19,787 bases of DNA, taken from Archangium sp. (GTDB lineage: Bacteria > Myxococcota > Myxococcia > Myxococcales > Myxococcaceae). Below the pieces are notes generated by a model. That model was given only the letters and a program-made list of their open reading frames with translations. It ran no database searches and was not told the DNA's origin. The position numbers were made by a program, and so were the translations under genes. Positions within the stretch are counted from its first letter, which is position 1. Every line of letters starts with the position of its first letter. This document shows, in pieces, positions 4,299 through 16,145 of the stretch. The stretch covers positions 1-19,787 of the forward strand of contig JANLPS010000136.1 in assembly GCA_031367385.1 (NCBI GenBank), read 5' to 3'.

Positions 4299-5207
4299 TC
4301 AGGCCTCGAGATCGAGCCGAATCAACGCCTCGTCTTGCCGCGCGCCCTCGAACACATGCCACGCGGCGACCACGTCGAGAAATGACGGCCCGACGCTCGC
4401 GAACACCGTCAGCTCTTCAGCGCTTTGCCGCCCCGGCTGCCGGTTCGCCAACACGTCACTCAACGTCGATGTGAAGGGCACGCCCCAGTCGAGCGCGGGC
4501 TCGGCCGCGTCGGTGAAGCGCTTCGCCCGACGCAGCAGCGCCGCCGGCAACGGCGGAGTCGCATAGCCGTCTGCGTTCAGCACCGTCACGTGCGCGCCAG
4601 GCCGCAGCCGGTCGGTCGGCAGGGTCACTTCGCCGGTCAGCACGATCAAGTCGGCGTTCTCGACGGCCTCTTCGGGTGAGTTCGTGCCACGCACCGAGGT
4701 CGCCAGCGTCGACTGCAGCCGCATCGCCAGCTCGGTGTTCGCGGCCGGGTCTTCTTCGTACAGCCACACCCGTTGAATCGAGCGCACCAGCCGAATCGCC
4801 TTGAGCGCCCCACTCGCCGCGGCCCCCGAGCCCAGCACCGCAACCTGTCGCGCGTCTTCGCGAGCCAGTACGTCAGCCGCGAGGGCGCCGACCAACGAGG
4901 CTCGCAGCGAGGTCAGATGCCCCGCGTCCATCACCGCGAGCACTTTGCCGGTCTTCACGTCGTGCAGCTGCAGCACCGAGCGGCTCTCACCCGGCTTCGC
5001 CAGCGCACTGCGCACCGTCACCGCGAAGGCCGGCACCGTTGGCCAGGTGGCCTGCCGAACCTGCGTGCTCAGCGCCTCGTGCTGCGAGCTGACGGTGTGC
5101 GACTGGTACGGCAGCGACGCGGTCAGCGCCTCACGCAGCTCACGCAGGAGGTGCAGCGCCTGCATGTGCCGCGAGACATCTGCGCGCGAGAGAAAAGCCG
5201 TGAGCAT
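4299..5207 (-). CDS. Ornithine cyclodeaminase / mu-crystallin family protein
   Basis: FLSRADV N-terminus, LHDVKTGKVLAVMDAGHLTSLRA, Rossmann VAVLGSGAAA, GRQSAEELTVFASVG...DVVAA. Confidence 0.85.
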   Translation of the reverse strand: MLTAFLSRADVSRHMQALHLLRELREALTASLPYQSHTVSSQHEALSTQVRQATWPTVPAFAVTVRSALAKPGESRSVLQLHDVKTGKVLAVMDAGHLTSLRASLVGALAADVLAREDARQVAVLGSGAAASGALKAIRLVRSIQRVWLYEEDPAANTELAMRLQSTLATSVRGTNSPEEAVENADLIVLTGEVTLPTDRLRPGAHVTVLNADGYATPPLPAALLRRAKRFTDAAEPALDWGVPFTSTLSDVLANRQPGRQSAEELTVFASVGPSFLDVVAAWHVFEGARQDEALIRLDLEA

Positions 5208-5393
5208 GCGCGTCGATACAACGCCGATGCCCGCCTTGACAGCAGCGAAATCTCACGGCGGGCAGGTCACCGCGGTGTCGTGCTGATAGCAGCCGTTGCC
5301 TTGCGACACCCACCCCGGCGTCGGCGCGGTCGTACAGGTGCAGAGGTACTCGACCAGGTGATTGGCGCCGCTACAGAACACGCCCTTGCCCGT
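5126..5393 (+). repeat. Direct repeat copy 1 (268 bp)
   Basis: Manual alignment to 7093-7361 gives 16 substitutions and 1 indel. Spans the lipoprotein 3' end, the intergenic gap and the OCD 5' end. Confidence 0.95.
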
Positions 5394-6878
5394 GCAGGCC
5401 GCGTATTCGGCGACGGTGCAGGTGTTGTTGCTGACGTGGTGAAAGCAGTTGTTGCCCACGTCGACCCAGCCCAGCCCGAGCAGCTCGGCGCGACCGGCGG
5501 AGTCGACACCGCAGGTGTAGAGGCGGTCACTTGGCGCGGCGCAGAAGAAGCCCTGATTCACCGGGGTCTCTTTCATCGGCGTGCTCTGGGGCCCGACGTA
5601 GATCTCGTGCCACGCGCCAGCGATCTCCACCGGCGTCGTCGCCACCAACGGGTTGTACCCTTCCTGCCCGAATTCGACTTGCAGCAGGGTCCACTGCTCA
5701 TAGTCGGCCCAGGCGGCTCCCCAATAGGCGGCGAGGTCTGCGGGGGTGATCGACCCGACCGGTTTGACCAACTTCTTCGCGGTCACCAGCTTGAGCGCGT
5801 TGGTGAATTGCCAGAACTCCATCGCCACGTCGAAGGCCTTGCGCGTGAAGGGCGCGAACTGCGAGGTCTCGGCTTGCGAGGTGTAGAGCGAGAGGCCTGA
5901 CGTCGCCTCGACGATGTCGGTGTGCAGCGGCTTCATCGGGCCATCGAAGACCGGCAGGCTGCCCTGCGCGGGGTCGAACCAGAGGCTGGCGTTTTGAAAC
6001 CAGGCCACCTTGCTCCAGTCAGTCGTGTCGGAGCGGTTGATGGCGGTGTTGAAGAGAAACTGCACCTGACACGGGCCAGGCACCGGCACCTGCGTGGTGC
6101 AGGCATTGTTGATCAGGGTGAAGACCATCTGCTGCTTGACCTGGGTGACCTGCCCGCTCGACGGCCCGACGCGCCACGAAGGCACGCTCTGCACGGTTCG
6201 AATGCGAAGGCGGCCGGCGCCGCTGAAGGGGTGCGGGGCGGTGGTGAGCCACCAGGGTTGGCGAATCGCCGAGAAGCTGCCCTGAATGTACGGGTTGCTG
6301 CCCGAGCCGAGCTGACCGTGGCTGTCGAAGGGCTGCCAGAAAGCGCTGCCGCCCTGAGTGCGCGGGCCGCTGGTCGTCCACTGCCACCAATCACCACCGA
6401 CCGGGTCGATGAAGCCGACCGATTCACCCGCGAGGGTGGGCGAGGTGCAGCCGGCGATGGTGCTGGCCGTGGGCGTCCACCGCATTGAAGACGACACGTT
6501 GGCGCCATTGACGTGGGTGGCGTTGAGGGCGTTGGTCCAGGCGACTCCTGTGGGGGCGATGGTGGGCCCGCCGGCCCCCTGCGCGCAGCCCCGGCCGAGC
6601 CCGAAGAACGACATCTTGGGCCCAGGCACGAGGCTCGTGGGGTTGGTCGCCGTCACCCAGGTGCCGCCGACGTTCTTCTTCGCCAGCACCGCGTCGGGCG
6701 AGGTCCAGCTCGAGTCGACCTTGAGGTAAAACGCCTTGGGGTTGGTCGTCTCGACCGCTGGAGCGACCCAACTGCTCAAGGCCTGAGACTCGCTGGCGAC
6801 GTCATCGGTCGCTGACGGCGGTTCGGCCGGGCCGCACGCGGTCAGCGCGCACACCAGCACCATCACTTGGGTTTTCAC
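5253..6878 (-). CDS. Large secreted lipoprotein with C-terminal Cys-rich repeats, function unknown
   Basis: GTG at 6878 gives (M)KTQVMVLVCALTAC (lipobox LTAC); Trp/Thr-rich body; two C-terminal GxFC...GWV..GN.C..H repeats. Confidence 0.75.
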   Translation of the reverse strand: MKTQVMVLVCALTACGPAEPPSATDDVASESQALSSWVAPAVETTNPKAFYLKVDSSWTSPDAVLAKKNVGGTWVTATNPTSLVPGPKMSFFGLGRGCAQGAGGPTIAPTGVAWTNALNATHVNGANVSSSMRWTPTASTIAGCTSPTLAGESVGFIDPVGGDWWQWTTSGPRTQGGSAFWQPFDSHGQLGSGSNPYIQGSFSAIRQPWWLTTAPHPFSGAGRLRIRTVQSVPSWRVGPSSGQVTQVKQQMVFTLINNACTTQVPVPGPCQVQFLFNTAINRSDTTDWSKVAWFQNASLWFDPAQGSLPVFDGPMKPLHTDIVEATSGLSLYTSQAETSQFAPFTRKAFDVAMEFWQFTNALKLVTAKKLVKPVGSITPADLAAYWGAAWADYEQWTLLQVEFGQEGYNPLVATTPVEIAGAWHEIYVGPQSTPMKETPVNQGFFCAAPSDRLYTCGVDSAGRAELLGLGWVDVGNNCFHHVSNNTCTVAEYAACTGKGVFCSGANHLVEYLCTCTTAPTPGWVSQGNGCYQHDTAVTCPP

Positions 6879-7092
6879 GGGAGTCTTTCGAATGACGAGG
6901 GGCACCTTGGTGAAAGAACCAAGGCCCCTGCGACGTTCACGAGGCTCCGGCGCTTGCGTTACGGCAGCGGTGGAATCCACGAGCAGGTCGAGTCGACCTG
7001 GCAGGCTTCGAAGCCGAACTCCTTGCCGTCGGAGCCTCCGTAGCGGCCGATCATGTTCGCCAAGACCGAGCCCAAATCGAACGGCGCGGTGG

Positions 7093-7174
7093 GCGCCTCA
7101 CGCAGCTCGCGCAACAGGTGCAACGCCTGCATGTGCCGCGAGACATCTGCGCGCGAGAAAAAAGCCGTGAGCAT
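7093..7174 (-). pseudogene. 5' fragment of the OCD-family gene
   Basis: MLTAFFSRADVSRHMQALHLLRELREA matches the first 27 codons of 4299-5207, then runs into unrelated sequence (ORF 6959-7174). Confidence 0.8.
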
Positions 7175-7219
7175 GCGCGTCGATACAACGCCGATGCCCG
7201 CCTTGACAGCAGCGAAATT

Positions 7220-7361
7220 TCACGGGGGGCAGGTCACCGCGGTGTCGTGTTGATAGCAGCCGATTGCCTTGCGACACCCAACCCGGGCTCGGTGCGGTGG
7301 TACACGTGCAGAGGTACTCGACCAGGTGATTGGCGCCGCTGCAGAAGACGCCCTTGCCCGT
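7220..7361 (-). pseudogene. 3' fragment of the Cys-rich lipoprotein gene, frameshifted
   Basis: Reads GKGVFCSGANHLVEYLCTCTTAPSPGWVSQGN, then +1 frameshift, then GCYQHDTAVTCPP-stop; no upstream gene body. Confidence 0.8.
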
Positions 7362-7423
7362 TCAGTCGGTCTGCGACGGAGGGGTGTGCGATCTGTTCGC
7401 CTCTTGAGTCAGACCGCCTTGGG

Positions 7424-8926
7424 TCAGACGCCGCCGGGGCGAAAGACTTGCAGCACGACGGGTGCCTCAGCCAGGGGGGCACCGCCACATCGAACCCGGG
7501 GCACGGTCGCCGGCTCACGACCCAGCAGGGTACGGTAGAGCGAGAGAAACGACCGGGGCCTGCGCAGTGGGTGAAAGAAGCGCCAGAGCTCGAACGGCGA
7601 CAACGGTACGACCTTCGGCATGAAGCTCCAGGTGCGACTTCGCCCGAAGGTGACCGCTGTCGACCCGAACTCTCCTCGAAAAAGACCTAACAGGTCGGCT
7701 GCCCAGCACTCGAAGCCGACGAGGTACGCTGCGGCGGGGTCGTCGCAGTCAACCCGCGCAAACGAGCAGTCGTGAGGGCGGTACTCGAGAACGTGGTACT
7801 CGTCGCCCGAGCGCAGGGCCAAGGCCAGCGCCGGCTTTCTGCCCAGGGTACGGGCGCCGTCAAGCGAGTGAAGCCCGCGAAACAGCCCGTGACCGTAGAA
7901 GTAAGCGGCCAAGTCGTTCAAATGAGCGCACAGCTCCTCGAGCTCGCCCACGGCCAGCTCGGCTTTCCCGCTGGCCGGCGCATACGCCTCGAGCAGCTCC
8001 ACATCTCCGCGGAACTCGCGGTCTGGCCAGCTCGCACGTGGGGCAGTCTTCAGAAATGGGAGTTCAGCCTCGACGTTCTCCACTCGGTAGTGTCGCAGAT
8101 GAATGGTCTGCCCAGGCGTCGGAGCCAAGAAGAGCCCGTCTGGCGTCAAGGCCTGCATGGCGGTCGCGACGCGAGCTGAATCGGCGAAGAAGGCGTTGTG
8201 GTTGAGCCACTCGCGATCGGCGTCGAAAGAGAGCCCTCCGCCACAGATGAGCATGCCGACGGGGGCCTCCCAAACGGCGCGTAAGTTGGCTTCTTCTTCA
8301 AGCAGCTGGCCCGCGACTTTCAGGGTATCGAAGGGCACGATTTTTTCGACCTCACCCGCCACCAGAAACGACCAATTGCTGCTGTTGTTCGTACACCCCC
8401 ACAGCCCCGGCTTGCTCACCAGCTGACGAAAGGCCTTGATGCTGCTCGGAAGGAAGGGGGTATCGACTGCCGAGAAGAAATTGCCGTGGCCCGCTTGATC
8501 GCGAACCAGAAACGGCAAGACGTCCCACTCGTCGAGGTGGTCGCGAGTGACGTGGTCGGGCGTCAAGAAGAAGACCTCGAGGTCACCCACCCGAAACCCT
8601 TCTCCGGGCTGGGCGAGGTGAACCGTGAAACCCATTTCGCCCAGAATCTGGCGTGCCGCGCTCGAAGAACGAACCGAAAGGATGATGGGAATTGAGCGCT
8701 CAAGGCGATTGAGCGTGGGAATGTCGAAGTGATCTTCATGCTCGTGGGAAATAAACACGGCATCAATCGCTGGAAAGAGGCCCAGGTTCACCACCCGCGG
8801 CGGGTACATGGCACCGACTGACCGGGCATGCCCGAAGTTCTCAGTCAGCAGCGGGTCGACCAACAAGCGCGTCGCTGGGGTCTGAAACAGCCACCCTTGG
8901 TGGCCGAGAAACGTGGAGGAGAACAT
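7424..8926 (-). CDS. Metallo-beta-lactamase-fold enzyme (500 aa), putative tailoring enzyme
   Basis: FLGHQGWLF...LLVDPLL and FISHEHEDH (HxHxDH), plus a long C-terminal extension. Start overlaps the upstream stop (TAATG at 8924-8928). Confidence 0.85.
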   Translation of the reverse strand: MFSSTFLGHQGWLFQTPATRLLVDPLLTENFGHARSVGAMYPPRVVNLGLFPAIDAVFISHEHEDHFDIPTLNRLERSIPIILSVRSSSAARQILGEMGFTVHLAQPGEGFRVGDLEVFFLTPDHVTRDHLDEWDVLPFLVRDQAGHGNFFSAVDTPFLPSSIKAFRQLVSKPGLWGCTNNSSNWSFLVAGEVEKIVPFDTLKVAGQLLEEEANLRAVWEAPVGMLICGGGLSFDADREWLNHNAFFADSARVATAMQALTPDGLFLAPTPGQTIHLRHYRVENVEAELPFLKTAPRASWPDREFRGDVELLEAYAPASGKAELAVGELEELCAHLNDLAAYFYGHGLFRGLHSLDGARTLGRKPALALALRSGDEYHVLEYRPHDCSFARVDCDDPAAAYLVGFECWAADLLGLFRGEFGSTAVTFGRSRTWSFMPKVVPLSPFELWRFFHPLRRPRSFLSLYRTLLGREPATVPRVRCGGAPLAEAPVVLQVFRPGGV

Positions 8927-10476
8927 TAAGGAGACCTCAGGCTGAAGGGCTCACCGTATTTGATCGACGGCAATGAGGTGCCAACGCTGGCGGCCTGCGC
9001 TGCTTGTATCGCCAGCGCTTTGGCCGACATCGACGCAATCTTCGCCGAGAAGAAGCTCGACTCTGCGTCGAAGCGAAACCACGGTGTCGAGCCCAGCGCG
9101 TAGGGGAAGAAGTACTTCAGGCCAGCTCGTTGAACCAGTCGGCGAATATTGACTTCGCTCACCCCCAGCATCGGGGAGGGCTCAAAGAGCCCCAGCGTCG
9201 TGACATACCAGGGCCACAAGCGCATCAGCGGCAACAACTCCTCGAACGAGTCTTGATACCCCTTCTGCATTCCCGTCCCGACGGTGCCAGCGCTGTAGAT
9301 GTTGCGCGCGAACAAGATGCCGGGCCGCGAACGCCCTTCCAGCCGGCCAATGAGCCAGTCGGTCTGAGCGTCAGTCAAAGCCGCATCGGCGATGAAGGTC
9401 GCCGTCGAGTGGGCCGTCTCGACGAGGTAGCAATTCCAACCATGAGGCAGTGACGCGGGGTACTCGCCGATGAAGGGAAAAGCGGTCACGGTGATTGAAC
9501 CGAAGGTGACCTTCTCGCCGTGGCCGAGGCTGACCACCTTGCGGTCGGCGCCGAGTATCTGGTGAATGATCTTGCGCAGATCGACTTCCCAGGGTCGGTT
9601 GACGGGGTCTGCTTTGGGCACGACGATGGTGGTTTGCAGCGGCAGCGCCAGCAACGTCCCCAGGCTGAAGTGATCAGCGTCTTGATGTGTAATCAATACC
9701 GCGTCGGGAGAAGGCAACGCGTGCATCGACAACTGCTCACACCTCGGCCCATAGGAAGTGAACAGGTGCTCGTCAGCAAACTCTGATGAGAAGACCTTGG
9801 GCAGCTCGTTGTCTCTAAAGTCGAACCGAGGCTGCAGGTAGGGGTCGACCCATACCGAGGCGTCGGGTGACTGAAAACTGACGGCCGCGTGCCCGAGCCA
9901 GGTCACGCGATCTCCCTCGCCTCTCTTGAGGCGCGCCGGCACCCGGTCGGCGCCCGCCGCAAGCGTCTCGACGATGCCCTGCTGAACCCAGACCGCGAGC
10001 ATTTCGTTGTCGAGCTCGACGCCCCACTCCGCGGCCCGCACCAGCAGCTCATCTTTGCCGATGCCCTGCATCAGGGCCGAAATGACTCGACCAAAGCCCT
10101 CGGTCATTTCTCCGGTCTCGTAGGCGAGCATGTCGTCGGCGCGTCGCTTGCGACCGTCGGCGAGCACCACGCGAAGTCGCTCCGGCTGAAAGTGCAGCAT
10201 GTCTTCGGCGTCGGGAGCGACCTTGAACTCGACTCGGCCGTCGACCAACGTGTTGGTGATCAGCCGATCGGCGAAGGGCACACCGAGTTGAATCTGATTC
10301 AAGCGGACCATCGACGTGGCCGACAAAGCGGCCTGGCGCAAGAAGGTGAGGGCGCCATCGAGGTGCGCCAGCCGCTGGCGCCCATCGCTCAGGTTCTGAG
10401 CGGTCACGCCGATGTTGCCCATGCGGAGCTCTGGCAACACATACGAAGACAGGGTGAGCCGTGGGCTCGACGTCAT
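8926..10476 (-). CDS. MBL-fold enzyme resembling CmlA-type non-heme diiron beta-hydroxylases (516 aa)
   Basis: ~185-aa N-terminal extension, then VTWLGHAAVSF...VDPY, ITHQDADH, PFIGEY, FIADA, WPWY and PYALGSTPW, in the order I recall for the CmlA family. ATGA overlap with the upstream gene. Confidence 0.7.
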   Translation of the reverse strand: MTSSPRLTLSSYVLPELRMGNIGVTAQNLSDGRQRLAHLDGALTFLRQAALSATSMVRLNQIQLGVPFADRLITNTLVDGRVEFKVAPDAEDMLHFQPERLRVVLADGRKRRADDMLAYETGEMTEGFGRVISALMQGIGKDELLVRAAEWGVELDNEMLAVWVQQGIVETLAAGADRVPARLKRGEGDRVTWLGHAAVSFQSPDASVWVDPYLQPRFDFRDNELPKVFSSEFADEHLFTSYGPRCEQLSMHALPSPDAVLITHQDADHFSLGTLLALPLQTTIVVPKADPVNRPWEVDLRKIIHQILGADRKVVSLGHGEKVTFGSITVTAFPFIGEYPASLPHGWNCYLVETAHSTATFIADAALTDAQTDWLIGRLEGRSRPGILFARNIYSAGTVGTGMQKGYQDSFEELLPLMRLWPWYVTTLGLFEPSPMLGVSEVNIRRLVQRAGLKYFFPYALGSTPWFRFDAESSFFSAKIASMSAKALAIQAAQAASVGTSLPSIKYGEPFSLRSP

Positions 10477-12233
10477 GACGCACGCTCCGTGGCATTCGCT
10501 TCATTATCGGCGGTTGGCGAAGCCTGCCTCAGCGCGAGCTGAAGCAACTCCGGGCTTTCGTTGATGAGCTTTCGAATGACGTTCAACGAAGACTCGAGTC
10601 GCCGCCCAGCAAAGAGCACCAGCGGGTAGGGGCAATAGTCTTTGGCGCCAACCGCCTGCGCGCACTCGCCGGGTACCTCAGCCACTTGCCGCTGCGCGAT
10701 CTCTCGGTACCTCTCGAGCTCATCGACCGGCAGGCCCATGGCGTCGGCCACATCTGCGAAGGCGTCGGTCTTGAGGTCGAGCCGCGCGGGGTCAGCCTTC
10801 GCCCATCGGTAGGCCTCGAAGAGCCGTTCTCCCTTCGTGGCCAAGCCGACCGCCATGATGGCTTCTGCCAACCCCGGTCTGGCCGACATGGCAAACCCGA
10901 CGCGAACGCAGAGCCCTCGGCCCTTCTCTTCGGCCAGCCAGGCATCCAAGCTCTTCATGAGCAATGCACACGTGAGGCAGTCGAGGTTCGCGATGACCGA
11001 AAGGTCATAGCCCCCGGGGCTGCGGGTCACCGAAACCGTCACCGCTTGGGCGTCGAACGACACCTGCTTCGCCTCGGCCAACTGGCGCCCGAGCCACCAA
11101 GGAGATTCTCGAAGCTGCTCCAACTCGGCTTGAAAGACACCGGCTCGGTCAGCCCCAATGAGGTGTGGCACGACTCCTGAGAGGACGAGCCCGAAAACCA
11201 AAAGCCACGCGACCCCGACCAGCGTCACTTCGAAGAGCGGGGGCAGGTGACGTGACACGACGAAGAGAAAATACACCCCCGAAGCCAGATTGACGGCATG
11301 CACCACGGCACACAGTCGGCAAAACATGCGGTTCTGCACCATCACCCAAAAGAACAGAGCCGCCTCGGGCAGCACAGCCAACGACAGACACCCCGTGAGA
11401 TATGCACCGGTCGGAAAGCACCCCAGCACCATCACTTGTGCTGAGAAAAACGCGACCCCGAGCCCCGACGCGGGAATGCCAGCCACCCTGGCAAAGCGGG
11501 AGTGAAGGAGATCATTGCAACCGCTGTGAGCGCCGCCGCACAGAAAATTCACGCTCTCACTGCCCCCGTACACACTCCGAATCATCGCGTAGCTCAGCCC
11601 CAGACCCACAGCGGCCAGACCGCCAAGCACCGCCACTGTGACCGGAGAGGCTCGAACCGCGCCCAAGGCCAAGAGCGCTGCCACCAGCCCAAGAAGAACG
11701 CGGGGCGCCCCGGGGGCTGAAGCAGGCCCGACCAAGTCGGTTCGAATTCGAAGCTCCTCGAAGAGACGCTCGACCAGTCTTCGACCGAGCCGGCCTGGTT
11801 CTGGGTGTGGAGGCCGGTGGAGTTCGGGGAGCTCGATGACGGCCAACACTCCGGAGAACTCGCGCGTAAACTGTGGGCGAGTCAGCGACCTCGATTTGTA
11901 GACAGAGTCCCACAGCTTGACCTCGGTCGCGCCCACCGACTCAATGAGCCCAAACCCACGGCTGCCGAGACCGCAGCACAAGACGACCCCAGGCTCGGGC
12001 GACTCCAAGCTCTCAACCTGAATCTCGCCCGTGGTGACCTCGAGCCCCAGGGCCTTGGCCGTCTCGACCACGGCAAGCATCGAGGTGGCGTTTTTCTGGG
12101 CTTCCACCAGCGAGCGCACGTGGTCGCGAGAGTACGGCAGCCCCAGACGACGACTGGCTTCGGCGAGGGCATGCGAGCCTTCAGCGACCCGCCAGGACTT
12201 CGGAACTTTCTCTTCGTCGGAGAGCTCGAGCAT
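10473..12233 (-). CDS. Fusion of C39-peptidase-like domain, VKOR and thioredoxin/DsbA-like domain
   Basis: Probable ATG at 12233 (MLELSDEEK). C39-like SMLAVVETAKALGL...LWDS...FTREFSGVL without an obvious catalytic Cys; VKOR loop CGGAHSGCNDLLHSRFA..AGIP and CRLC; C-terminal CLTC thioredoxin-like motif. Confidence 0.85.
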   Translation of the reverse strand: MLELSDEEKVPKSWRVAEGSHALAEASRRLGLPYSRDHVRSLVEAQKNATSMLAVVETAKALGLEVTTGEIQVESLESPEPGVVLCCGLGSRGFGLIESVGATEVKLWDSVYKSRSLTRPQFTREFSGVLAVIELPELHRPPHPEPGRLGRRLVERLFEELRIRTDLVGPASAPGAPRVLLGLVAALLALGAVRASPVTVAVLGGLAAVGLGLSYAMIRSVYGGSESVNFLCGGAHSGCNDLLHSRFARVAGIPASGLGVAFFSAQVMVLGCFPTGAYLTGCLSLAVLPEAALFFWVMVQNRMFCRLCAVVHAVNLASGVYFLFVVSRHLPPLFEVTLVGVAWLLVFGLVLSGVVPHLIGADRAGVFQAELEQLRESPWWLGRQLAEAKQVSFDAQAVTVSVTRSPGGYDLSVIANLDCLTCALLMKSLDAWLAEEKGRGLCVRVGFAMSARPGLAEAIMAVGLATKGERLFEAYRWAKADPARLDLKTDAFADVADAMGLPVDELERYREIAQRQVAEVPGECAQAVGAKDYCPYPLVLFAGRRLESSLNVIRKLINESPELLQLALRQASPTADNEANATERAS

Positions 12234-12246
12234 CGGTGCTGAAAGC

Positions 12247-14397
12247 TTACGCCGCGTCACCACCACCATCGAGCTGCATCTGCACCAACTGGGCGTAGGC
12301 GCCATTCAAGGCGAGCAATTCGTGATGGCGCCCTTTTTCAGCGATGCGCCCGTCTTGCATCACCAGAATGACGTCTGCGTGCGCCACCGTACTGAGTCGA
12401 TGCGCGATCACGACGCGAGTGCACTGAAGGCGAGCGAGCGCTTGCTGCACCTGATGCTCGGTGATCGCATCGAGAGCGCTCGTCGCCTCGTCGAGAACGA
12501 GAATCTTCGGCTTTCGAGCCAAGGCACGAGCGATCGCGAGACGCTGCCGCTGCCCGCCCGAGAGCGTCGTACCCCCCTGTGGAAGAATGGTATCGAGACC
12601 GGTCGGCAGTGCTCCGATGTCTTCAGCAAGACACGCCACTCGAATCGCCTCGTGAACCTCTTCGTCAGTCGCCCCGGGCGCAGTCTTCAAGACGTTCTCT
12701 CGAATGCTGCCAGAGAAGATGTGCGGTTGCTGAAGAACGATACCCATTTGTTGGCGCAGCGCTCGCAGCTCGAGCTCTTGCAGCTCGACGCCGTTGAACG
12801 AGATCGAGCCCGACGATGGCCGGTAAAGCCCCAGCAGCAGCATCGAGAGGGTCGATTTGCCTGAGCCGGAGCGGCCGACCACCGCCACCATCTTTCCCGG
12901 CTCAATGTGCAAGTCGACATCTTGGAGCACCAAGGGGGTGTCCGGTGCGTACCGAAAACTGACCCCTTTGAGGTCGATGCTCCCGTCGAGCTCGATCTCG
13001 CGACGGGGTCGGCCGGGTGGCTGCTCGACTTCGCTGTCGAAAACGTCATCGAGCCGCTCGCATGCGCTGGCAATGGCTTGAAAGGTGGAGGCCGTGTTGA
13101 TGAGGTTAGCCAGCGGTGTCAGCAGCGCGGAGGCGAGTGCCCACAGCCCGAGCATGGTGCCGAGCGACACCTGCCCGCTGAGCACCTGCTGGGCTCCAAA
13201 CCCCAGGAGAATGAGTGGAGCCGCCGTCTGCAGCGTTCCTTTGATCGCGTCGATCCACGCCTCGAACTTGCTGCGGGCGGTCATGACCTCGGCGTAGGTC
13301 AGCCTGCGCGGTACCCACTCATCGAGGCTTGCTTCTTCGGCGCCCATCGACTTGAGGTCGTTCACGGCAGTCAACATTTCGCTGAGGCCTTCATGCGATC
13401 GAGAGGTGGCTTCCAGCTCGCGTCGGGCGTACTGGCGGAGCGGCGCTCGACTCGCCCAAAACACCACCCCCATCAGCGCCCCGACCACCAGCGTGGTCAG
13501 CGCAAGCAGGGGGCTGAGCGCGAACAAGATGATGAAATAGAGCAGCGCGAGCGCCCCGTCGAGGAGCGAGCTCAGCGCCCCCTGGGTCAGAAACTGCCGA
13601 ACTTCTCCAATGGTATTGTAGCGGGCCAGCAAATCTCCTGTGTGCCGCGACTGAAAGTACGCCAGGGGCAAGCCCATCAAGTGCCGAATGAATGTGAACG
13701 GGAGCGCCATATCAAACCGGGCCCGCACCTCGGTGAGCAGATGTGCACGCACGATAGAGGCGACGAACTGCCCCGCGAGCACGCAGGCAAACCCCGCCAG
13801 GAGCACCACCAACAAGCGGTAGTCGCCGCGCGGCAGCACGCGGTCGATCACTGACCCTGTCAGAATTGGCACGGCGAGGCCGACCATCTGTAAAAGGGCC
13901 GTCGTCGCTAAGATTCGGCCCCAGCGCGACCGCTTGACGTGACGCACAATCCACGCCCAGCTCTGGCTGTCGGTCTGACCTCCGCCGGGCACAAATGCTT
14001 CGGTCGGTTCCAACAGCAACGCCACGTGGGTAAAGGCCCTGTTGAACTCGTCGAGGGAGAGCGTCTCGGGGCCACTGGCCGGGTCGATGATGTCTACCCG
14101 GTTGCCCCGAAGGCGCTCGAACACGACGAAGTGAACCCCTTTCCAGTGGAGAATCGCGCCGGGCTCGAGGTACCCGACCTGGTCGTTCTCGACCTGAACG
14201 CCCTGCCCATCAAGCCCCAGCTTTCGAGCCGCGTGGAGCAGGTCACGCGCCGTCGACCCCGAGCGACCTCGCCCGACCACCTGGCGCAGCTCGTCGAGCT
14301 TCGTTCGACGCCCGTGATAGCTGAGCACCATCGCGAGGCAGGCGATGCCGCAGTCCATCGAAGACATCTGCTGCACGAATGGAATTCTCTTCGCCAC
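12247..14397 (-). CDS. Peptidase-containing ABC transporter (PCAT; SunT/LagD-type bacteriocin exporter)
   Basis: C39 motifs QQMSSMDCG, HFVV and IIDP; TM domain; Walker A GRSGSGKS; LSGGQ; LDEATS; IAHRLS. GTG start. Confidence 0.95.
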   Translation of the reverse strand: MAKRIPFVQQMSSMDCGIACLAMVLSYHGRRTKLDELRQVVGRGRSGSTARDLLHAARKLGLDGQGVQVENDQVGYLEPGAILHWKGVHFVVFERLRGNRVDIIDPASGPETLSLDEFNRAFTHVALLLEPTEAFVPGGGQTDSQSWAWIVRHVKRSRWGRILATTALLQMVGLAVPILTGSVIDRVLPRGDYRLLVVLLAGFACVLAGQFVASIVRAHLLTEVRARFDMALPFTFIRHLMGLPLAYFQSRHTGDLLARYNTIGEVRQFLTQGALSSLLDGALALLYFIILFALSPLLALTTLVVGALMGVVFWASRAPLRQYARRELEATSRSHEGLSEMLTAVNDLKSMGAEEASLDEWVPRRLTYAEVMTARSKFEAWIDAIKGTLQTAAPLILLGFGAQQVLSGQVSLGTMLGLWALASALLTPLANLINTASTFQAIASACERLDDVFDSEVEQPPGRPRREIELDGSIDLKGVSFRYAPDTPLVLQDVDLHIEPGKMVAVVGRSGSGKSTLSMLLLGLYRPSSGSISFNGVELQELELRALRQQMGIVLQQPHIFSGSIRENVLKTAPGATDEEVHEAIRVACLAEDIGALPTGLDTILPQGGTTLSGGQRQRLAIARALARKPKILVLDEATSALDAITEHQVQQALARLQCTRVVIAHRLSTVAHADVILVMQDGRIAEKGRHHELLALNGAYAQLVQMQLDGGGDAA

Positions 14398-14489
14398 GAG
14401 CGTGAGACGCTATCACGCGCATTCTGAAGGACGACTTACCGCCCGCTTTTCTGGCCTCGTGCCGGGGGTGACCTACACTCGTCGCCGAA

Positions 14490-15848
14490 ATGCGTCGCGC
14501 TCCCTCCGCCTCTTGGCTCGCCTTGGTGATCGCCGCCCACGCCACGTCAAGCTTCGGTGAGAGGCTCACCCTGCCTCAGGCGGTCAGTCGGGCGATGGAG
14601 GTCGACCCCTCCCTCGCTGCGGCGCACACGCTCGAAGATCGAACCAAGCTGGCAGTTCTGCGTGCCCAGCTCGACCGTGTCTCGGTCACGGTTGATGGCC
14701 AAGTCTCCGAGCTGTGGAACCGGTACGGCATTGGCCTTTCGACGGAGCAGGCTCTTGGCGCAGAGGTGCCCACGAACCAGGGGTTGTTCGGCCTCACGGC
14801 CGTCGTTTCGGTGCCGCTCTTCTCGGGGTTGCGGGTCGAGTCGACCGTCGGGCGGGCGCAAAAGCTTCGAGAAGCTCAAAGCGGCTCGGTGACGTTGAGT
14901 CGAAACGACTTGGCGCTCTCGGTCGCTCGCGCGTACTGGGCCATCAGACGCACCTCGCTGTTGACCGAAGTTCAGTCCCGCTCGGTTTCACGACTCGAAG
15001 AGGCGGAGCAGATCGTCAGCGTTCGAGTTCGAGCGGGGTTGGCCCCGCCAATCGATCTGAACCGAGCCAAGCTGCGCCGCCTGCAACTGACGGTCGCGCT
15101 GGTCGAGCTCGAGGGTCAGGCCCGGCAAGCCGCGGCCGAGTTCGCCGTGGCCCTCTCGCTTTCGAAAGAGGTCGAGTTGGTCGATATGCCAAACGTCAGA
15201 CCACTGCTCGAAAAGACGCTCCCCGCAGTCGAGCTCCTCGTCGAAGATGCCAAGCGCGACCGCCCCGAGTTGGCCATCGCCCACCTTCAGGTCGAGGCTC
15301 AGCGCTCTGGCGTCAGCATCGCTCGCTCGGGCTATTTCCCGCAGCTTTCGGCGATCAGTCTGCTGCAGCTCGGCAACAACCCGCAGATCTTGAGCGCAGG
15401 CTCAAAGGTCAGCCCGACCTCATGGAACCCGTTTCTCAATGTGTCGGCCAACATCACCTTCGGAGCAGTGCTGTCGGGCAACATCTTCAACATGCTCAGC
15501 ACCTACACCGCAGTTGCTGATGCAACGTACGAGCTCGACCGACTGACCGAGGAGGAGCGACGCGCGGCTCGTCTCATTGAGACGAACGTTCGAACCGCCT
15601 ACATCAAGGTTCAGGCGTTGATGAAGCGACGAACCCCCCTCGTCGAGGCGCATGAAGTCGCCGCCGACAATCTGACGATTCTGGAGGCCCGCTACGCGCA
15701 GGGGTCATCGCTTGTCATCGAGCTGCTCGACTCGCAGCTCGAGCTGACGAACGCCGAGCTCAATCTCAGTGACCTTGACGCGCGGCTCGCCCTGGCTTGG
15801 CTCGAGCTCCAAGCGGCGCTCGGCGTCACGCTCGGTACCGAGCCCTAA
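14490..15848 (+). CDS. TolC-family outer membrane efflux protein
   Basis: Signal peptide, LTLPQAVSRAM, VSVPLFSG, RPEL...ARSGYFPQLS and RYAQG..LVIELLDSQ; divergent from the PCAT gene. Confidence 0.9.
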   Translation: MRRAPSASWLALVIAAHATSSFGERLTLPQAVSRAMEVDPSLAAAHTLEDRTKLAVLRAQLDRVSVTVDGQVSELWNRYGIGLSTEQALGAEVPTNQGLFGLTAVVSVPLFSGLRVESTVGRAQKLREAQSGSVTLSRNDLALSVARAYWAIRRTSLLTEVQSRSVSRLEEAEQIVSVRVRAGLAPPIDLNRAKLRRLQLTVALVELEGQARQAAAEFAVALSLSKEVELVDMPNVRPLLEKTLPAVELLVEDAKRDRPELAIAHLQVEAQRSGVSIARSGYFPQLSAISLLQLGNNPQILSAGSKVSPTSWNPFLNVSANITFGAVLSGNIFNMLSTYTAVADATYELDRLTEEERRAARLIETNVRTAYIKVQALMKRRTPLVEAHEVAADNLTILEARYAQGSSLVIELLDSQLELTNAELNLSDLDARLALAWLELQAALGVTLGTEP

Positions 15849-15892
15849 AAAGAACAACCGCGCTGGCGACGTTGAAGCGATCGCCAACGCGG
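15847..15892 (-). terminator. Rho-independent terminator for the precursor gene
   Basis: Minus strand CCGCGTTGGCGA-N11-TCGCCAGCGCGG (12-bp stem with one G-U pair) followed by TTGTTCTTTTT, 22 nt after the precursor stop. Confidence 0.75.
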
Positions 15893-15914
15893 GGAGTGCT
15901 CGATTCACTGATTG

Positions 15915-16079
15915 TTACGGGCAGTAGCTCGGGCCGCACTTCGAGCCGTACATAAATACTTGATAAGGGTTGTTGAGGGGCGAGCAACAGCCATAGATGG
16001 TCATGCCGCCACCGTGGCTTGCAAGCGACTCTTCAGAAACGGGCTTCAGGGCGGTCTTCAGCGAAAGCATCTTCTTCAT
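15915..16079 (-). CDS. Double-glycine-leader RiPP/bacteriocin precursor peptide (54 aa; not in ORF track)
   Basis: Manual translation: MKKMLSLKTALKPVSEESLASHGGG|MTIYGCCSPLNNPYQVFMYGSKCGPSYCP-stop. With cleavage after G25 the leader has V-12, S-11, L-7 and GG. Flanked by a promoter and a terminator; PCAT nearby. Confidence 0.85.
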   Translation of the reverse strand: MKKMLSLKTALKPVSEESLASHGGGMTIYGCCSPLNNPYQVFMYGSKCGPSYCP

Positions 16080-16129
16080 GGGGTTGTCCGGGTTGGGGTG
16101 GGTTGTTAGGTGATTCGATGGTGAGCTTT

Positions 16130-16145
16130 AGCAATACGGGGGCCA
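16130..16145 (-). promoter_or_regulatory. sigma54-type -24/-12 promoter of the precursor gene
   Basis: Minus strand TGGCCCCCGTATTGCT = TGGC-N7-TTGCT (GG-N10-GC), 50 nt upstream of the ATG. Confidence 0.65.

What the first reader, a model, noticed from the sequence alone, without database searches (positions are those of the whole stretch)
7424..16145. Candidate new RiPP class: disulfide-rich double-Gly peptide cluster tailored by two MBL-fold enzymes
Seen: a coupled operon PCAT > C39-like/VKOR/Trx > MBL1 > MBL2 (13-nt gap, then ATGA and TAATG overlaps), a divergent tolC and a GG-leader precursor. Established: PCATs cleave GG leaders and export the core, and VKOR with a thioredoxin domain forms disulfides. 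Inference: the 4-Cys core is oxidised to two disulfides and further modified by the MBL-fold metalloenzymes. No LanM, YcaO, radical SAM, P450, ATP-grasp or lasso enzymes are present, so it fits no RiPP class I can name.
Basis: partly seen in the sequence, partly recalled or inferred. Interest (0 to 1): 0.92.

Follow-up and report, generated by a model that had tools for sequence, protein, structure and literature searches.

The report
Peptide cluster with two undescribed metalloenzymes
An intact bacterial gene cluster encodes a small four-cysteine peptide, an exporter, a likely disulfide-forming protein and two metal-binding-fold proteins from undescribed families whose relatives mostly sit beside other small peptides, so the two are likely new peptide-modifying enzymes, one of them predicted to hydroxylate the peptide as the antibiotic enzyme CmlA does.

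Summary
Genes, junctions and precursor are real and intact, and independent assemblies span the cluster unchanged. The cluster is a mosaic of three modules that recur separately. (1) A C39-like/VKOR protein recurs in 12 other genomes of 208 searched; those loci carry a PCAT and double-Gly precursors with 4 or 2 Cys, mostly with an ATP-grasp gene instead of MBLs. (2) MBL1 is a full-length structural homolog of the diiron beta-hydroxylases FrsH and CmlA (Z 24.4 and 20.2; next 16.6). It keeps their ligand positions except one His-to-Asp change and forms its own clade. All 6 other readable loci of that clade carry RiPP genes or a precursor-like ORF; 0 of 15 control MBL loci carry RiPP markers. (3) MBL2 is a separate family that resembles CMAH without the Rieske domain, and is often beside precursors too. 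The MBL pair was found in no other genome, so it is not a conserved class signature. Best model: cytoplasmic hydroxylation (Tyr is the leading guess), then leader cleavage, export and two disulfides. The chemistry is untested. Ten literature searches found no such enzymes described in RiPPs.

The parts
15915..16079 (-). Precursor peptide, 54 aa. Double-Gly-type leader, likely cut after Gly25. The 29-aa core has Cys31, 32, 48, 53 and Tyr29, 39, 44, 52.
   Evidence: a one-substitution variant P0140 exists; no other homolog found
15857..15893 (-). Hairpin plus T-run after the precursor stop, likely an intrinsic terminator between precursor and tolC
   Evidence: fold -29.7 kcal/mol; the scan found one terminator-like site, no more than the chance level of 1.6
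14490..15848 (+). TolC-family outer membrane channel, 452 aa
   Evidence: Pfam OEP E 1e-34
12247..14397 (-). PCAT: C39 peptidase + ABC exporter, 716 aa, with the catalytic Cys (DCG) and His (HFVV) motifs present
10473..12233 (-). 586-aa protein: C39-like domain lacking the catalytic Cys motif, VKOR domain (loop Cys232/239, CRLC at 305-308) and a likely DsbA-type thioredoxin domain (CLTC at 419-422)
8926..10476 (-). MBL1, 516 aa, CmlA/FrsH-like fold; predicted metal ligands H264, D266, D268, H269, E338, D364
7424..8926 (-). MBL2, 500 aa: MBL domain plus a C-terminal domain that is likely SCP2-like; CMAH-like without Rieske; conserved H61, E62, H63, D65, H66, E133, D155

Best explanation
The cluster encodes a 54-aa double-Gly precursor that is likely oxidised in the cytoplasm by two predicted dimetal (probably diiron) MBL-fold enzymes, then likely cut and exported by the PCAT and likely locked with two disulfides by the VKOR protein. 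Shown: the genes, their motifs, MBL1's full-length fold match to FrsH/CmlA, and the repeated placement of each MBL family beside precursors. Inferred steps: (1) MBL1 binds the leader-bearing precursor and uses O2 at a CmlA-type diiron site to add a hydroxyl at a side-chain beta-carbon; Tyr is the leading guess (about 0.35), Asn or Pro are alternatives. (2) MBL2 makes a second oxidation, possibly on an aromatic residue near the C-terminus. (3) The PCAT cuts after Gly25 and moves the 29-aa core across the inner membrane. (4) The VKOR/thioredoxin-like protein forms two disulfides among Cys31/32/48/53, perhaps holding the leader with its protease-dead C39-like domain. (5) TolC releases the product, with an adaptor and an electron donor supplied from elsewhere in the genome. 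The cluster is a lineage-specific combination of portable modules, not a conserved class.
For: MBL1 model pLDDT 87.6. Foldseek ranks FrsH and CmlA first (E 1e-20 to 4e-17; next 5e-10). VIA-align gives FrsH Z 24.4, rmsd 3.9, 372 aligned over residues 2-510, and CmlA Z 20.2; the next rows are 16.6. The family profile ranks CmlA/FrsH best in the PDB. E338 aligns with CmlA E377 and is kept in 32 of 32 members; H264, D268, H269 and D364 in 31 of 32. The MBL1 clade has SH-aLRT 99 (quick tree). All 6 other readable loci of the clade, in 4 lineages, carry RiPP genes or a precursor-like ORF, against 0 of 15 loci of other MBL clades with a RiPP marker. Only Gly, Ser and Tyr occur in all five MBL1-associated cores examined. 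MBL2 family: 3 of 8 other myxobacterial loci are clear RiPP clusters (L115, L116, L117), 2 more have a small peptide (L045, L046), and 4 of 4 actinomycete plasmid relatives have a 41-50-aa ORF ending Y-H-H/R directly upstream. Atlas structure neighbours of an MBL2 homolog include CMAH and Rieske/MBL/SCP2 clusters (TM 0.63-0.69). VKOR loci carry 4- or 2-Cys cores, while MBL1 loci without VKOR carry 0-1 Cys cores.
Against: No activity is shown. MBL1 has Asp where CmlA has its second His (D266, 32 of 32); a non-RiPP clade (HGDNDH) has the same change, so the metal site may differ. Characterised CmlA and FrsH act on carrier-tethered amino acids (PMC7794379 passages). MBL2's best PDB matches are UlaG-type hydrolases and NAPE-PLD, and hhalign puts MBL1 E338 against MBL2 positions 124-125 (Asp/His), not E133. 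The Tyr argument is post hoc: chance 0.01-0.11, and two of the five cores are kin. Three of 8 MBL2 loci show no precursor (L047, L048, L066). No reductase, ferredoxin or HlyD-type adaptor is among the cluster's ORFs. The precursor has no homolog beyond one near-identical variant. Both MBLs together were found in no other of 207 genomes.
Confidence: 0.6

Rival explanations
1. The MBLs do act on the peptide, but as oxidases that cross-link or desaturate it (aromatic Tyr/His links, Cys-derived heterocycles, backbone cleavage; -2 or -4 Da) rather than adding oxygen.
For: MBL1's altered ligand set (D266). MBL2 relatives sit on His/Tyr-ending or His-Xaa-Ser precursors. The core has four Tyr.
Against: The only characterised full-length fold relatives of MBL1 are beta-hydroxylases. 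Most MBL1-associated cores lack Cys.
Confidence: 0.17
2. One or both MBLs are zinc or manganese hydrolases (secondary peptidase, esterase, dephosphorylating or deformylating enzyme, or self-protection factor); MBL2 is the more likely of the two.
For: MBL2's top PDB matches are UlaG, NAPE-PLD and SaxA-like hydrolases. H125 is kept in 103 of 119 members. APH-type kinases follow some MBL2 genes.
Against: Carboxylate-rich conserved sites in both families; full-length CmlA match for MBL1; CMAH-like neighbours for MBL2; the PCAT already has an intact protease.
Confidence: 0.14
3. The island is a recent, partly mismatched mosaic: PCAT/VKOR make a plain disulfide peptide, and the MBLs are passengers or act on another substrate.
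For: The combination is unique among 208 genomes. The island is lower in GC (0.628 against 0.652; 18 of 661 windows are as low) and was not found in congener G390, which is 87% complete.
Against: All frames are intact and the MBL genes are translationally coupled to the VKOR gene. Elsewhere MBL1 stays beside a precursor even when no other RiPP enzyme is near (L044).
Confidence: 0.09

Closest known systems
CmlA / FrsH non-heme diiron beta-hydroxylases (chloramphenicol, FR900359)
   Same: Full-length two-domain fold, the Glu and Asp ligand positions, and the C-terminal YAxG-x-xPW motif.
   Different: About 15-19% identity; HxDxDH instead of HxHxDH; no CmlA_N hit in 32 of 32 members; neighbours are ribosomal precursors, not NRPS genes.
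CMAH / NamH-type Rieske-MBL hydroxylases (NamH assignment recalled; CMAH from PMC4819959 passages)
   Same: MBL domain plus a likely SCP2-like C-terminal part; TM 0.63-0.69 between predicted models for an MBL2 homolog.
   Different: MBL2 has no Rieske domain, and its context is peptides rather than sugar nucleotides (though GT9 and PIG-L genes occur in L045 and L046).
PqqB (MBL-fold iron hydroxylase of PQQ biosynthesis; activity recalled)
   Same: An MBL-fold oxygenase in a peptide-derived pathway.
   Different: Only a generic fold match (Z 12.2); it acts on an excised small molecule, and no other pqq gene was recognised here.
Double-Gly, disulfide-containing bacteriocins/microcins and glycocins (recalled; listings only)
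   Same: PCAT cleavage and export of a disulfide-bonded core with a dedicated thiol oxidoreductase.
   Different: The oxidoreductase is a C39-like/VKOR/Trx fusion; there is no glycosyltransferase or HlyD gene; two MBLs are added.
PCAT + VKOR + ATP-grasp clusters of related myxobacteria (L087-L099; uncharacterised as far as searched)
   Same: Same export and disulfide chassis; 4-Cys double-Gly precursors.
   Different: They have an ATP-grasp-like gene (12 of 13) and acidic cores; the window has two MBLs and a Tyr-rich core.

Membership tests
PCAT-exported double-Gly RiPP | Short precursor with a GG-type leader | tested here: met
   Val at -12, Leu at -7 and GG for a cut after Gly25; position -4 is His rather than hydrophobic (sequence; consensus recalled)
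PCAT-exported double-Gly RiPP | ABC exporter with an active C39 domain | tested here: met
   Pfam C39 E 3e-35; Cys and His motifs present
PCAT-exported double-Gly RiPP | HlyD-type adaptor for one-step export in Gram-negatives | tested here: not met
   none among the cluster's ORFs; the rest of the genome was not searched
PCAT-exported double-Gly RiPP | Modified, secreted product | not testable with these tools
   needs expression and mass spectrometry
CmlA/FrsH beta-hydroxylases (MBL1) | N-terminal domain + MBL domain fold | tested here: met
   Z 24.4, rmsd 3.9, 372 aligned over residues 2-510
CmlA/FrsH beta-hydroxylases (MBL1) | Ligand set HxHxDH + Glu + Asp | tested here: not met
   5 of 6 positions kept; the second His is Asp in 32 of 32; ligand roles recalled
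CmlA/FrsH beta-hydroxylases (MBL1) | Pfam CmlA_N domain | tested here: not met
   0 of 32 members at E <= 1
CmlA/FrsH beta-hydroxylases (MBL1) | Cognate NRPS carrier nearby | tested here: not met
   none in the window or recognised in 6 other loci, 2 of them short contigs
CmlA/FrsH beta-hydroxylases (MBL1) | Diiron, O2-dependent hydroxylation | not testable with these tools
   needs biochemistry
CMAH/NamH hydroxylases (MBL2) | Rieske domain | tested here: not met
   no Rieske hit; the protein begins with the MBL domain
CMAH/NamH hydroxylases (MBL2) | MBL + SCP2-like fold | tested here: inconclusive
   Atlas neighbours of homolog P0026 only, predicted against predicted; the wide structural search of the window's own model did not run
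RRE-containing RiPP enzymes | PqqD-like winged helix domain in MBL1 | tested here: inconclusive
   strands then three helices at residues 101-172; no PqqD hit in 32 members; the domain was not folded alone
Lanthipeptide / graspetide / rSAM / YcaO / lasso / P450 classes | Class-defining enzyme in the cluster | tested here: not met

The most novel reading that the evidence does not exclude
Two undescribed families of MBL-fold diiron oxygenases are portable RiPP maturases. The MBL1 family is a CmlA-derived clade with an HxDxDH site that has moved from NRPS-tethered amino acids to ribosomal peptides. The MBL2 family is a Rieske-less CMAH-like family acting on His/Tyr-rich termini. Each can define a peptide class alone (a 45-aa repeat peptide with only MBL1 in L044; YH[HR] peptides with MBL2 and a kinase-like gene in actinomycetes), and here both decorate one disulfide-locked miniprotein with chemistry not yet seen in RiPPs.
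Probability: 0.45. Interest if true: 0.85.

Novelty: new variant of a known kind. Interest (0 to 1): 0.7.

Why it matters
If right, it adds a new cofactor class, MBL-fold diiron oxygenases, to RiPP enzymology beside MNIO, 2OG, P450 and radical SAM enzymes. It gives two mining handles that Pfam and NCBIfam now label only as generic hydrolases. It would also show a CmlA-type hydroxylase working without an NRPS carrier, which is attractive for site-selective peptide hydroxylation. Two-gene systems such as L044 make the claim directly testable.

Tried and rejected
The MBL2 viral scan gave 5 weak hits that were not examined. MBL1 was not found in 20 genomes of one other class and MBL2 not in 301 genomes of an actinobacterial draw; neither search had a positive control. 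The CmlA_N search of the own genome rang nowhere, controls included, so it is uninformative. No RNA holder was listed, which is no evidence on expression. The wide structural search for MBL2 never ran. The careful tree did not finish; the quick tree is used. The RRE idea is unresolved. A possible second MBL1+MBL2 pair (P0141 and P0029, same source and the same longest-contig length of 8,316) could not be checked and may be chance. Two regex hits judged spurious (L091:14521, L099:15253) and one Cys-free precursor of a neighbouring ATP-grasp cluster (L088:14360) were dropped before the Cys count; 4 of 13 VKOR loci gave no precursor by that pattern. The primary CmlA papers were not held. The RRE-Finder paper was listed with one MBL mention that I could not locate in its text or readable supplements; two scanned files were unread. 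Rejected: a conserved paired-MBL class; a lanthipeptide or graspetide reading of this window; an assembly artefact.
Full report
Observation. tolC (14490-15848, +) is divergent from PCAT. The precursor (15915-16079, -) reads MKKMLSLKTALKPVSEESLASHGGGMTIYGCCSPLNNPYQVFMYGSKCGPSYCP and is followed by a hairpin and T-run. Pfam and NCBIfam give no class-defining RiPP enzyme and label both MBLs only as generic Lactamase_B proteins. Single contigs of two runs, possibly the source samples, span the cluster with no difference. The island is lower in GC than most of the genome (18 of 661 windows as low) and was not found in the one congener, which is 87% complete.

The export and disulfide chassis is not unique. 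The VKOR protein has homologs in 12 other genomes of the 208 in the family. In the 13 loci fetched, a C39-domain hit was seen in 12 and an ATP-grasp-like hit in 12 (tblastn, 28-32% identity to the L042 protein), and none had an MBL hit. Double-Gly precursors were found in 9 of 13 loci: nine with 4 Cys and one with 2 (dropped rows are listed under Tried and rejected). These genomes are kin, about three precursor types. The four cores beside MBL1 in loci without VKOR have 0, 0, 0 and 1 Cys. This supports disulfide formation as the VKOR protein's job. Its VKOR cysteines and a second CXXC are intact; the thioredoxin call rests on homologs.

MBL1 is CmlA-like. Sequence search of the PDB gave FrsH and CmlA first. 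A confident model matched them over its whole length by Foldseek and VIA-align (Z 24.4 and 20.2 against 16.6 for the next rows). The Atlas placed homolog P0002 near CmlA_N-containing clusters. Across 32 full-length members, H264, D266, D268, H269, E338 and D364 are kept in 31-32; they align with CmlA H305, H307, D309, H310, E377 and D403 (alignment; E377 matches the title of PDB 5kil; their role as iron ligands is recalled, as the primary papers were not held). The second His is always Asp. The family is small (47 representatives at E <= 1e-30) and forms its own clade (SH-aLRT 99, quick tree of 94 rows, one row left out).

MBL1's neighbours are RiPP genes. Six other loci of the clade could be read, in four lineages: L042 and L043 (LanB, ATP-grasp, radical SAM-SPASM, JmjC, PCAT, double-Gly precursor; LanC in L042), L005 (LanB, LanC, precursor), L006 (two precursor-like ORFs on a 1.8-kb contig), L004 (divergent LanB on a 2.2-kb contig) and L044 (only a 45-aa Met-rich repeat peptide directly upstream). 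As a control, 0 of 15 loci of other MBL clades (10-17 kb each) hit the LanB, LanC, radical SAM, ATP-grasp, C39 or VKOR markers. One outer-group MBL on a Streptomyces plasmid does sit with LanB, LanC and GrrM, so the link is not confined to the clade. Only Gly, Ser and Tyr are common to the five cores examined; beta-hydroxylation of Tyr fits CmlA-family precedent (recalled), but the argument is post hoc (chance 0.01-0.11).

MBL2 is a different family. It shares only a short stretch with MBL1, has at least 199 homologs, and keeps H61, E62, H63, H66, E133 and D155 in 119 of 119. The PDB offers only generic MBL matches. Atlas structure neighbours of homolog P0026 include CMAH and Rieske/MBL/SCP2 clusters; CMAH is described as a likely oxygenase (PMC4819959 passages). 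Whether its third ligand is E133 or H125 is unresolved. Of 8 other myxobacterial loci, three are clear RiPP clusters: L115 (LanB-MBL2-LanB with a double-Gly precursor), L116 (PCAT, a precursor ending HHY, MBL2, APH kinase) and L117 (His-Xaa-Ser repeat peptide with radical SAM genes). Two have a small conserved peptide with ABC and GT9 genes, and three show no precursor. Four of four actinomycete plasmid relatives examined (136-169 bits to the family profile over nearly full length) have a short ORF ending YHH or YHR directly upstream. Two earlier unchecked notes of this scan describe MBL+SCP2 proteins with double-Gly precursors in other genomes; they agree but are not counted as support.

The pair is not conserved. 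In 208 family genomes MBL1 was found in 4 and MBL2 in 7, the own genome included, and only the own genome has both; the 401-genome phylum draw gave the same result. One genome has MBL1 and VKOR on different contigs. The cluster is best read as a combination of portable modules.

Mechanism. Most likely (0.6): leader-dependent oxidation in the cytoplasm by MBL1 (CmlA-type beta-hydroxylation) and MBL2, then PCAT cleavage after Gly25, export, two disulfides by the VKOR protein and release through TolC. The cluster lacks an adaptor and a reductase; FrsH was assayed after chemical reduction (PMC7794379 passages). Rivals are oxidative cross-linking (0.17), hydrolysis (0.14) and passenger genes (0.09).

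Literature. Ten full-text searches of the open library listed no paper whose title or opening abstract describes a CmlA-type or CMAH-type MBL as a RiPP maturase; VKOR terms had zero occurrences in the 20 papers listed for each. Seen as passages: 10.1101/2020.04.16.045138 (CmlA as a rare beta-hydroxylase), PMC7794379, PMC4819959, and PMC13097080 (its beta-lactamase is the serine family PF00144; no VKOR or Lactamase_B hit in two supplements). PMC7470986 was searched without locating its one listed mention. The others were seen as listings only. Subscription journals are mostly absent, so prior description cannot be excluded. PqqB is a recalled precedent for an MBL-fold hydroxylase in a peptide-derived pathway.

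Verdict. A real, intact, uncharacterised RiPP cluster. It is not a conserved new class as framed, but it joins two enzyme families that look like undescribed RiPP oxygenases, and small two-gene relatives make this easy to test. New variant of a known kind; interest 0.7.

Noticed in passing
L044:1855-3567: Minimal two-gene system: a 45-aa peptide with GAAPM-type repeats directly upstream of an MBL1-clade gene, with no other RiPP enzyme recognised on the 8.8-kb contig; the cleanest test case.
   Followed up: partly
L051:9740-12336, L108:5768-8354, L109:5748-8353, L110:2279-4854: Actinomycete plasmid cassette: short ORF ending YH[HR], MBL2-like gene and a roughly 290-aa gene (kinase-like by one annotation), near a regulator gene. 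L116 has a similar layout with a PCAT.
   Followed up: partly
L087-L099: PCAT + C39-like/VKOR/Trx + ATP-grasp-like clusters with 4-Cys acidic double-Gly precursors: candidate disulfide-containing graspetides.
   Followed up: partly
L042:608-18124, L043:685-16624: Hybrid cluster with LanB, ATP-grasp, radical SAM-SPASM, JmjC, MBL1, HlyD and PCAT around a 16-aa Cys-free core; L042 also has LanC.
   Followed up: partly
L115:1599-9802: Two LanB genes flanking an MBL2-family gene, with a 3-Cys precursor and no LanC hit on the 12-kb contig.
   Followed up: no
window 5115-5425 and 7082-7387: Direct repeat (280 of 305 identical) around the 575-aa gene at 5253-6980; it duplicates the start of the ornithine cyclodeaminase-like gene and abuts the cluster's end, a possible insertion scar.
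   Followed up: partly
window 5253-6980: 575-aa protein with no Pfam or NCBIfam hit, a Cys-rich C-terminus, a partial paralog on G000:C556 and an ortholog in G390.
   Followed up: no
L049:9423-9605 (G000:C158): Orphan peptide with a similar basic double-Gly leader and 2 Cys, directly downstream of a large kinase-like gene. The window precursor likewise follows a STAND-WD40 gene, and L115 lies between WD40 and kinase-like genes.
   Followed up: partly
L050:10538-21933: Streptomyces plasmid cluster with an outer-group MBL (HSHPDH), LanB, LanC, GrrM-type radical SAM and a 93-aa acidic precursor-like ORF.
   Followed up: partly
L052-L057, L067: A separate MBL clade with HxDNDH, also Asp for the second His, in non-RiPP contexts; function unexplained.
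   Followed up: no
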